From assembly GCF_006345805.1 (NCBI RefSeq), contig NC_043006.1:37820001-37884000 (forward strand): a stretch of 64,000 bases of DNA, read 5' to 3'. Under the pieces are notes generated by a model. That model was not told the origin of the DNA. It did no database searches and saw nothing but the letters and a program-made list of their open reading frames with translations. This document shows positions 28,071-29,649 of the stretch, one piece after another (within the stretch, counting starts at the first letter, position 1; every line of letters starts with the position of its first letter). Made by a program: the position numbers and the translations under genes. The stretch comes from Octopus sinensis. Taxonomy: Eukaryota.

Positions 28071-28919
28071 GACACAGAAAAAACAAGGAGAGAAATAAAT
28101 GTGTGTAATGGCTAACGATCTATCATGGTGACTAGGCATGGCGACTAGGCATGGCTACATGGTAAGAAGCTTGCTTGCCAACCACATGGTCTGGGTTCAG
28201 TCCCACTGCATTGCATGTTGGGCAAGTGTGTGTGTGTATGTTTGCGTGTCTGCATGTTGGGCAAGTGTCTTCTACTATAGCCTCAGGCCAACCAAAGCCT
28301 TACCAAGGACCTATAATCCATTAAGGGATGTTTACATCCTAGTTCTCTGCTTTTTCCCAGTGTTCAGTGAAAAGCTAAATGCATTAGTTTTGTATTGATG
28401 GATGTATTTAAATTATTTATGAATGAGAAAAAGAAGAAAATAGAGAAATTGACACATAGACACCAGTTTATTCAAAGATATTCAAATCAATATAATATGA
28501 AAGTCTTATCCCTACAGACATTTCCATCTAATTAATTCAATTAGAGAAATTAGATTAAAACAAATTAATTTAAAATTTTCAGATTTGAACAATTTAATTG
28601 GGTAATTCATCAGGGGAGAATTTACCAGAAGGAGTTACATTCCAATGTGTTGGTCGACTTTTGTATATATATATATTTACATGTGTGTATCTGTGTATGT
28701 CCCTCAACCATCACTTGACAACCGATGTTGGTGTGTTTACATCCCCATAACTTAGCAACTTGAAAAAAGAGACCAATAGAGTAAGTACTAGGCTTGGAAT
28801 AAGTCTTGGGGCTTGATTTTTTCGACTATGACCCTTTAAGGCAGTGCTCCAGCATGGATCCAGTCAAATGACTGGAGCATGTAAAACAATAAAAGAGTAA
28901 AAGAATACTTCTAGATATT

Positions 28920-29080
28920 GTTCTATATTTAAGTGATGAGGAATTATGTACATTATTTACATTTGATGGATATTTGTTCTCATCTTGTTCGTTGTTAACA
29001 CAACATTTTGGCTGATATACCCTCCAACCTTCATCAGGTGTCTTGGGGAAATGTCAAACCTTGGTTCTCATTCTTAAGGT

Positions 29081-29129
<49 letters not shown>

Positions 29130-29287
29130 TAATAATAATAATAACAACAACATTGAAAAATACCTTAGGAATGGGAATTCCGGTTCAAAATTTTCCCAAA
29201 ACACCTGAGGAAGGCTGGAGAGTATATCAGCTGAAACATTGTGATAACAACAAACAAGATGAGGACAAATATCCGTCAAATGTAAAT
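28920..29287. mobile_element. Inverted pair of hammerhead-bearing repeats around (AAT)n, flanked by a 16-bp direct repeat
   Basis: Arms ~28950-29083 and ~29159-29290; motifs at 28998-29041 (-) and 29201-29244 (+); aatacttctagatatt at 28904-28919 and 29288-29303. Confidence 0.85.
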
Positions 29288-29649
29288 AATACTTCTAGAT
29301 ATTTAACTAAAAATCTCCACAGGCTCAAGTAAAACATAATATTTCACCCACAATATCCCCAAAGATTCATTTGCTTTTAAAGTTTTAAATCAATATGTTC
29401 TTAATATATGTGTGTCTGTATTGATAAATGTCTGTACATTAATATATGTTCTATTCACCCATTCAGGCATGAGTGAGGATTTGTGCATTGGAACTTACAT
29501 GTAGGCGTAGGTATACGTATGTGGTTAGGAAGCTTGTTTGTCAACAATGAGTTTCAGTTTCAGTTCCACTGTACAGTACCTTGGGTTGGGCTAATGCCTT
29601 GTGAAGGAATTTAGTAGACGGAAACTGTGTGGAAGCCTATCATGTATGT

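What the first reader, a model, noticed from the sequence alone, without database searches (positions are those of the whole stretch)
28904..29303. Inverted hammerhead pair inserted as one unit with a 16-bp target-site duplication
aatacttctagatatt occurs at 28904-28919 and 29288-29303. It brackets two opposed ~130-bp arms (hammerheads at 28998-29041 and 29201-29244) separated by an (AAT)n/(AAC)n tract. A TSD outside both arms implies a single insertion of the hairpin unit, and its length fits retrotransposition better than cut-and-paste. The left arm has a ~30-bp longer 3' tail. A solo, better preserved copy is at ~39870-39970.
Basis: seen in the sequence. Interest (0 to 1): 0.72.

Follow-up and report, generated by a model that had tools for sequence, protein, structure and literature searches.

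The report
Head-to-head Penelope stub, double-primed insertion

Summary
In detail: the 16-mer occurs only at 28904-28919 and 29288-29303 and brackets two opposed arms. The arms are terminal repeats (pLTRs) of a protein-coding Penelope/Poseidon-like retrotransposon with thousands of candidate copies here. Each holds the ORF start and a minimal dimer-type hammerhead motif, decayed in both arms. The extra ~30 bp on the left is the known Penelope 'tail'; the (AAT)n tract belongs to the right arm. The layout is the family rule: 45 of 45 head-to-head units have one tailed and one tail-less end, and 19 of 42 have an exact duplication of 10 bp or more (0 of 858 cross-pairs), mostly 12-13 bp. This layout is published (PMC3846280, PMC8557442). 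The unit is likely built at insertion by two priming events, not moved as a hairpin. No empty site was found. Beyond the unit, the family's repeat begins with a tRNA-like A/B-box head and its sense strand lacks TTTT, suggesting Pol III transcription; I did not find that in print. The scan noted both readings before, on other DNA of this and other genomes.

The parts
28904..28919 (+). Left copy of the target-site duplication (16 nt; 13 without the AAT microhomology)
28920..29083 (-). Left arm: 5'-truncated pLTR of a Penelope-like element, ending at the long (tailed) site; holds the ORF start at 29071 with a stop at codon 6
   Evidence: 95% to best genomic copies
28920..28951 (-). The 32-nt Penelope 'tail'; in a full-length copy it is in-frame N-terminal coding sequence
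   Evidence: matches L057 at its pLTR-ORF junction, 93%
28997..29042 (-). Minimal dimer-type hammerhead motif, decayed (GAAA read as AAAA, stem III CG read as TG)
29080..29087 (.). Inversion junction, 8-nt palindrome TATTAATA, the likely annealing point of the two cDNA ends
   Evidence: role inferred
29084..29154 (+). (AAT)n/(AAC)n tract, internal to the family's pLTR, upstream of the right arm's ATG
29155..29290 (+). Right arm: pLTR ending at the short (tail-less) site in the AATGTAAAT repeats; ORF start at 29171, open to the end of the arm
29200..29245 (+). Minimal dimer-type hammerhead motif, decayed (stem III CG read as CA, two stem I changes)
29288..29303 (+). Right copy of the target-site duplication; first 3 nt shared with the element
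39862..39974 (+). Separate solo fragment of the same pLTR; hammerhead core kept (39894-39939), internal deletion, no clear duplication

Best explanation
The unit is a single old insertion of two head-to-head, 5'-truncated terminal repeats of a Penelope/Poseidon-like retrotransposon inside a 13-16 bp target duplication, likely assembled on the spot by two target-primed reverse-transcription events. Inferred steps: the element's RT-endonuclease protein nicks both strands of AT-rich DNA about 13 bp apart; each free 3' end primes cDNA inside the element's RNA, one at a site in the AATGTAAAT repeats (here 117-120 nt after the ATG, helped by an AAT microhomology) and the other about 32 nt further on, which gives the tail; both cDNAs run towards the RNA's 5' end, stop early, anneal at a short palindrome (here TATTAATA) and are filled in. 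Shown: identity of the arms, the tail as ORF sequence, the one-long/one-short rule, the family-wide duplications. The unit itself is most likely inert today.
For: [quoted passage not shown] In the full-length copy L057 the tail runs on in frame into the ORF, as it does in L054. Head-to-head partners were found in 20 of 29, 18 of 29 and 6 of 19 loci of three searches. With the focal unit, 45 of 45 have one tailed and one tail-less end by a tail probe (42 of 45 by raw BLAST ends); in the set not selected for the tail it is 20 of 20, at most about 1e-6 if the ends chose independently. Exact duplications of 10 nt or more: 19 of 42 against 0 of 858 cross-pairs; with one mismatch 26 of 42 against 10 of 858; commonest lengths 12 and 13 (19 of 32). 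The tail-less arm reaches further 5' in 22 of 45 units, the tailed arm in 10, tie in 13, which one self-copying strand cannot give. Arms of one unit share 20 rare variants over 40 units, reached by 0 of 5000 permutations. The Anolis Poseidon protein cuts and extends both strands, prefers ATT, is predicted to be a dimer and starts at two internal RNA sites that bound the tail (PMC11167929, parts 1-2 of 4 read); both strands of this 16-mer end in ATT.
Against: No empty allele was seen: the filled right junction is in runs of organisms A, B and D (X1, X2, X20, X4), and organism C (X9, X6, X14) has no cover of the flank. In vitro the Anolis enzyme showed no difference in start site between strands, which does not explain the strict rule. 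An ATT end is not general in the family: first two bases of the duplication AT or AA in 18 of 32, last two TT or AT in 15 of 32, in 75% AT sequence. 16 of 42 units lack a duplication of 10 nt or more even with one mismatch. Shared variants could come from gene conversion or subfamily structure, and the focal pair shares none. Pfam did not score the endonuclease. Loci are best hits, not a random sample.
Confidence: 0.7

Rival explanations
1. One priming event followed by fold-back self-priming at a palindrome (or self-priming on an antisense RNA, as proposed in PMC3846280), with the endonuclease resolving the hairpin about 30 nt short to leave the tail on one side.
For: Palindromes and 1-12 nt overlaps at many inner junctions; shared variants between arms; it gives one-long/one-short directly. 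PMC8557442 ascribes the tail to endonuclease resolution (passages).
Against: Simple fold-back needs the tailed arm always to reach at least as far 5' as the other; the tail-less arm reaches further in 22 of 45, by 600-750 nt in L054, L058 and L059. The tail matches the stretch between two RT start sites in vitro.
Confidence: 0.17
2. The hairpin is a non-autonomous element that is transcribed and moved as a whole (a MITE-like or retrozyme-like unit with two ribozymes).
For: One duplication outside both arms; the unit folds as a strong hairpin (-171.8 kcal/mol); many units cluster near 480-520 bp.
Against: Units range from 338 to 2825 bp with different junctions and some include ORF pieces; the size cluster follows from arms stopping at the family's 5' head (48 of 78 arm ends); hammerheads are on opposite strands, and only 16 of 80 arms keep the core intact.
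Confidence: 0.06
3. Two independent insertions, the second landing next to or inside the first in opposite orientation.
For: The two arms are only 83% alike, below the 92% mean of other units, and share no rare variant.
Against: A single 16-nt duplication lies outside both arms; both arms are about equally diverged from the family (7.8% and 9.0%); the same layout recurs in 45 units.
Confidence: 0.03

Closest known systems
Typical endonuclease-positive Penelope insertion, e.g. Pen2a_Av of Adineta vaga (PMC3846280, passages; PMC8557442 Fig. 2 legend, passages)
   Same: Inverted 5'-truncated pLTR, head-to-head; 31-bp tail on one end only; pLTR holds the first codons of the ORF and the tail extends them; 8-10 bp duplications; palindromes at the inverted junction.
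   Different: Here no ORF body lies between the arms (368 bp in all); duplications are mostly 12-13 bp; the family's pLTR starts with a tRNA-like head and has an (AAT)n tract.
PAc, Poseidon of Anolis carolinensis (PMC11167929, parts 1-2 of 4 read)
   Same: RT with C-terminal GIY-YIG-type motif; hammerhead at the ORF start; tail defined by two internal start sites; one copying start about 111-118 nt into the ORF (short end here 117-120 nt after the ATG); ATT at the target ends.
   Different: PAc showed no strand difference in start site in vitro, whereas the genomic units here are strictly one long, one short; no tRNA-like head was described in the parts read.
Minimal hammerheads of metazoan Penelope-like elements (PMC4209133, passages)
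   Same: No stem III loop, palindromic 15.2-16.2 positions, one extra base between positions 9 and 10.1, G10.1-C11.1 pair in the family majority.
   Different: Both copies in this unit are decayed and lie on opposite strands, so the dimer cannot form in cis.
L1 twin priming (recalled, no call)
   Same: Two priming events at a staggered cut give an inverted 5' part inside one duplication.
   Different: In L1 the two parts come from different stretches of the RNA; here both arms copy the same stretch from two fixed sites.
TRIMp3 elements Cassandra, Helenus, Ajax (PMC10886601, passages)
   Same: A tRNA- or 5S-derived Pol III promoter inside a terminal repeat.
   Different: Those are non-coding LTR elements; here the tRNA-like head sits in the repeat of a coding Penelope-like element, and it is absent from the focal unit.

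Membership tests
EN+ Penelope-like element (Penelope/Poseidon) | RT domain contiguous with the repeat | tested here: met
   RVT_1 in L008 (E 2.8e-8) and L057 (E 1.3e-7), both running into the same arm
EN+ Penelope-like element (Penelope/Poseidon) | DKG motif upstream of the core RT | tested here: met
   PVDKGN in L057; motif named in PMC8557442
EN+ Penelope-like element (Penelope/Poseidon) | C-terminal GIY-YIG endonuclease, no extra Zn-finger linker (unlike Neptune/Nematis), not N-terminal (unlike Naiad) | tested here: inconclusive
   CVYSIPC...VYKGET motif after the RT and no cysteine cluster before it, by eye; Pfam gave no GIY-YIG hit
EN+ Penelope-like element (Penelope/Poseidon) | Clade placement by RT phylogeny | not tested
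   No tree built; no reference proteins fetched
EN+ Penelope-like element (Penelope/Poseidon) | pLTR containing the ORF start, inverted 5'-truncated copy, 30-40 bp tail at one end | tested here: met
EN+ Penelope-like element (Penelope/Poseidon) | Variable target-site duplication | tested here: met
   19 of 42 exact at 10 nt or more against 0 of 858
Minimal PLE hammerhead | CUGANGA and GAAA cores, stems I and II, palindromic stem III | tested here: met
   Met for the family majority and the solo copy; 16 of 80 arms intact. Numbering is recalled
Minimal PLE hammerhead | Intact core in the two focal arms | tested here: not met
   Left: G12 and C15.2 changed; right: G16.2 and two stem I bases changed
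Minimal PLE hammerhead | Self-cleavage as a dimer | not testable with these tools
   Needs an in vitro assay
Non-LTR retrozyme | Head-to-tail tandem monomers with co-oriented hammerheads, no coding link | tested here: not met
   Arms are opposed and are ends of a coding element; definition from search listing and passages
MITE / foldback DNA transposon | Symmetric terminal inverted repeats, fixed short duplication, uniform size | tested here: not met
   Ends asymmetric in 45 of 45, duplications 10-16 bp, sizes 338-2825 bp
Pol III (tRNA-type) promoter in the family's repeat | A and B boxes, tRNA similarity, copies starting at the head, no T4 on the sense strand | tested here: met
   A box 38 of 54, B box 37 of 54 allowing CpG decay (23 strict), best match tRNA-Arg(TCT) among 20 sampled tRNAs; 48 of 78 arm ends at the head, 3 beyond; 0 T4 runs in 2618 nt. 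Not present in the focal unit
Pol III (tRNA-type) promoter in the family's repeat | Transcription by Pol III from that head | not testable with these tools
   No RNA reads laid; needs 5'-end mapping or inhibitor tests

The most novel reading that the evidence does not exclude
The parent is a protein-coding Penelope-like element transcribed end to end by RNA polymerase III from a tRNA(Arg)-derived head in its terminal repeat, and its enzyme dimer always primes the two target strands from two different fixed RNA sites, so that every head-to-head stub such as this one records an asymmetric double-priming step.
Probability: 0.45. Interest if true: 0.6.

Novelty: new variant of a known kind. Interest (0 to 1): 0.3.

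Why it matters
The locus itself is a dead stub of a published pattern and needs no further work. Its family gives two testable points on an open question, how Penelope-like elements insert. The tail asymmetry is strict (45 of 45) and either arm can be the longer one, which favours two primings from two fixed sites over fold-back and can be tested in the existing in vitro system. The family's repeat starts with a tRNA-like head and its sense strand avoids TTTT, which would make it a coding retroelement read by Pol III, raising the question of how an uncapped RNA is translated.

Tried and rejected
Rfam on the window and the unit: no hammerhead hit, only microRNA models on hairpins and simple repeats, all below their cut-offs. 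Monomer folding of 3 hammerhead copies: no hammerhead fold, z -0.5 to 0.4, as expected for a loop-less stem III. Rows with a small share are no evidence. ARAGORN found no tRNA gene in 28 loci nor in 54 leader segments at default score; 17 hits at a lowered score against 2 in 270 shuffles. Rfam tRNA scored 14.2 bits (E 1, cut-off 29) on L013 and nothing on L016 or on 5 whole loci. My first B-box pattern was faulty (0 of 54) and was corrected. Pfam did not recognise the endonuclease or the N-terminal pieces. Raw BLAST ends misclassed 3 of 45 pairs (L005, L009, L088); a tail probe, whose scores split cleanly (20 or less, 28 or more), and reading by eye resolved them. A general ATT end at the duplications was not borne out. 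A look-up of earlier findings by sequence gave nothing. Rejected readings: MITE, retrozyme, two independent insertions, a functional ribozyme pair.

Full report
Observation. The 16-mer AATACTTCTAGATATT is at 28904-28919 and 29288-29303 and nowhere else in the window. Between the copies lie a minus-strand arm (28920-29083), a 71-nt (AAT)n/(AAC)n tract and a plus-strand arm (29155-29290); the arms are 83% alike and the unit folds as one long hairpin. The left arm has 32 extra bases at its outer end. A solo fragment lies at 39862-39974. The first three bases of the right 16-mer are also the element's next bases: in 4 of 4 public runs, 534-641 contigs of other copies leave the stretch at 29290 and go on with element sequence. 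The duplication is therefore 13 bp plus an AAT microhomology.

What the arms are. The window's genome (2.72 Gb) holds 2406 candidate matches to the right arm and 4452 to the left, of which 40 each were scored. In locus L008 the arm is preceded by a decayed ORF with a reverse transcriptase (Pfam RVT_1, E 2.8e-8) and a C-terminal CMYSIPC...YKGET motif. A search with that ORF end gave 2800 candidates; 20 longer stretches were fetched. L057 is a full-length copy: inverted short arm, a remnant of the direct repeat, about 2.3 kb of broken ORF with PVDKGN, RT (E 1.3e-7) and the same endonuclease-like motif, then a tailed repeat, all inside a 12-bp duplication. There the tail runs on in frame into the ORF, and the same continuation follows the tail in L054. 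The focal arms carry the same ORF start. Pfam did not score the endonuclease and I built no tree, so the Penelope/Poseidon label rests on motifs and domain order. The arms are pLTRs of a coding Penelope-like element.

The hammerheads. The family motif reads stem I, CUGAUGA, one extra A, a 5-bp stem II, GAAA, CG, UU, stem I: a loop-less stem III that can only close between two copies. This matches the minimal hammerheads described for metazoan Penelope-like elements, which cleave weakly and as dimers (PMC4209133, passages). Of 80 arms, 16 keep the core intact. The focal left arm has lost G12 and C15.2, the right arm G16.2 and two stem I bases (numbering recalled). They lie on opposite strands, so a read-through RNA would form the long hairpin, not a dimer. 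Rfam has no hammerhead hit here and monomers do not fold as hammerheads.

Family census. I examined 29 loci from the right-arm search, 29 from the left-arm search and 19 from the ORF search (focal locus counted once, duplicate L066 dropped; L051 is L008 extended). Head-to-head units with both outer ends were found in 20, 18 and 6 of them; their flanks are not duplicates of each other. With the focal unit, 45 of 45 have one tailed and one tail-less end by a tail probe; raw BLAST ends gave 42 of 45. The left-arm set is selected for a tailed arm; the right-arm set is not (anchors 20 short, 9 long) and gives 20 of 20. Among the 42 pairs, exact duplications of 10 nt or more occur in 19 against 0 of 858 cross-paired ends, and with one mismatch in 26 against 10 of 858. 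A second scan, without a null, found 32 of 45, with 12 or 13 nt in 19. The focal 16-mer is the longest exact one. Units span 338-2825 bp, median 509. The tail-less arm reaches further upstream in 22 units, the tailed arm in 10, and 13 tie; small differences near the AAT tract are unreliable, but L054, L058 and L059 differ by 600-750 nt. Arms of one unit share 20 rare variants over 40 units, more than any of 5000 permutations; the focal pair shares none. The focal arms are 7.8% and 9.0% from the family majority, against a mean of 4.6% in a sample biased to good hits, so this copy is old.

Empty site. One run search and two layings showed the filled right junction in X1, X2, X20 and X4 (organisms A, B, D), with only about 25 nt of arm on those contigs. 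Organism C (X9, X6, X14) did not cover the flank at 80-85% likeness, and 3% of raw run X22 gave one unrelated read. The single-event claim rests on the duplication and the census.

Mechanism. Best reading: staggered nicks about 13 bp apart, each 3' end priming cDNA inside the RNA, one at the short site (117-120 nt after the ATG here) and one about 32 nt further on, both cDNAs ending early and annealing at a palindrome (TATTAATA, 29080-29087), then fill-in. The Anolis Poseidon protein cuts and extends both strands, prefers ATT, is predicted to dimerise and starts at two internal sites that bound the tail (PMC11167929, parts 1-2 of 4). Both strands of the focal 16-mer end in ATT, but that is not general in the family, and the in vitro work saw no strand difference in start site. 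The main rival is fold-back self-priming with endonuclease resolution (PMC3846280 and PMC8557442, passages); it does not easily explain tail-less arms that reach further upstream. All mechanistic steps are inferred.

Comparison with what is known. An inverted, 5'-truncated pLTR, a 30-40 bp tail on one end that extends the ORF start, 8-10 bp duplications and junction palindromes are all described for Adineta Penelope (PMC3846280, passages) and as the general pattern (PMC8557442, passages). A search for 'twin priming' with 'Penelope' and 'inverted' listed 2 papers, neither on this by title or abstract start. Penelope families are already annotated in an octopus genome (PMC13282606, passages); that this genome is a cephalopod is my guess, not a result. 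Supplements were not read and may hold this family.

Beyond the unit. The family's repeat begins with a tRNA-like head that the focal unit lacks. Of 54 near-complete segments, 38 have an A box and 37 a B box allowing CpG decay (23 strict); the best match among 20 distinct tRNAs from 30 loci is tRNA-Arg(TCT), score 52.6 against 48.6 for the next isotype, with many isotypes not sampled. ARAGORN finds none at default score, 17 at a lowered score against 2 in 270 shuffles; Rfam scores one copy at 14.2 bits, below cut-off. Of 78 arm 5' ends, 48 fall at -70 to -110, 3 beyond, 8 inside the head and 19 nearer the arm; a native palindrome at that spot could also draw junctions there. The sense strand of L057 has no T4 run in 2618 nt against 3.6-5.8 expected (1-22 of 1000 shuffles give none) and 33 A4 runs; 18 other loci have 2 in 18,227 nt, though these are related copies. 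This suggests Pol III transcription of a coding element. Two searches for it in print listed 4 and 1 papers, none on this by title or abstract start; the nearest known case is the non-coding TRIMp3 group (PMC10886601, passages). The retrozyme preprint 10.64898/2026.07.22.740005 (2 passages) does not mention tRNA, tail or cephalopods.

Earlier notes of this scan. 138 findings in at least 30 genomes describe similar Penelope stubs, and several in this genome describe the tRNA-like head and the lack of T4. My reading of the unit was stated before these look-ups and the head and T4 tests were run by me; the notes agree but are not independent support.

Verdict. Real, correctly described, and in itself an ordinary Penelope insertion of a published type. 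The interest lies in the family: a strict two-site rule at the ends and a likely Pol III head. Interest 0.3.

Noticed in passing
L008:1410-1485, L011, L013, L057 and others (family pLTR, about 70-100 nt upstream of the arm): The family's repeat begins, about 30 nt after the ORF stop, with a tRNA-like head with A and B boxes, closest to tRNA-Arg(TCT) among 20 sampled tRNAs; 48 of 78 arm 5' ends fall there; the sense strand has 0 T4 runs in 2618 nt against 33 A4 runs.
   Followed up: yes
window 32683-33813: A 1.1-kb foldback element with arms of about 510 bp that are 99% complementary, next to a (TA)n tract; looks young; no duplication found at its ends.
   Followed up: partly
window 4794-5334: A 540-bp foldback element, arms 86-93% complementary, MITE-like; no clear duplication.
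   Followed up: partly
window 34467-35207: A 246-codon open frame that looks like a mariner-type transposase fragment (motifs recognised from memory), between inverted (TA)-rich arms at 34068-34196 and 35414-35542.
   Followed up: no
window 16951-17739: An open frame that looks like the C-terminal part of a LINE reverse transcriptase (by eye).
   Followed up: no
window 29650-29893: Three tandem copies of a 66-nt unit just right of the finding.
   Followed up: no
L057 and L066: The same full-length insertion with flanks occurs on a chromosome-scale contig and on a small contig, 97.9% alike over 7.5 kb, probably a second haplotype; L066 was left out of the counts.
   Followed up: partly
L006:1-1242, L023:1848-2693: Inverted partners that are long RT fragments abutting a short arm, showing that the second arm can reach far into the ORF.
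   Followed up: no
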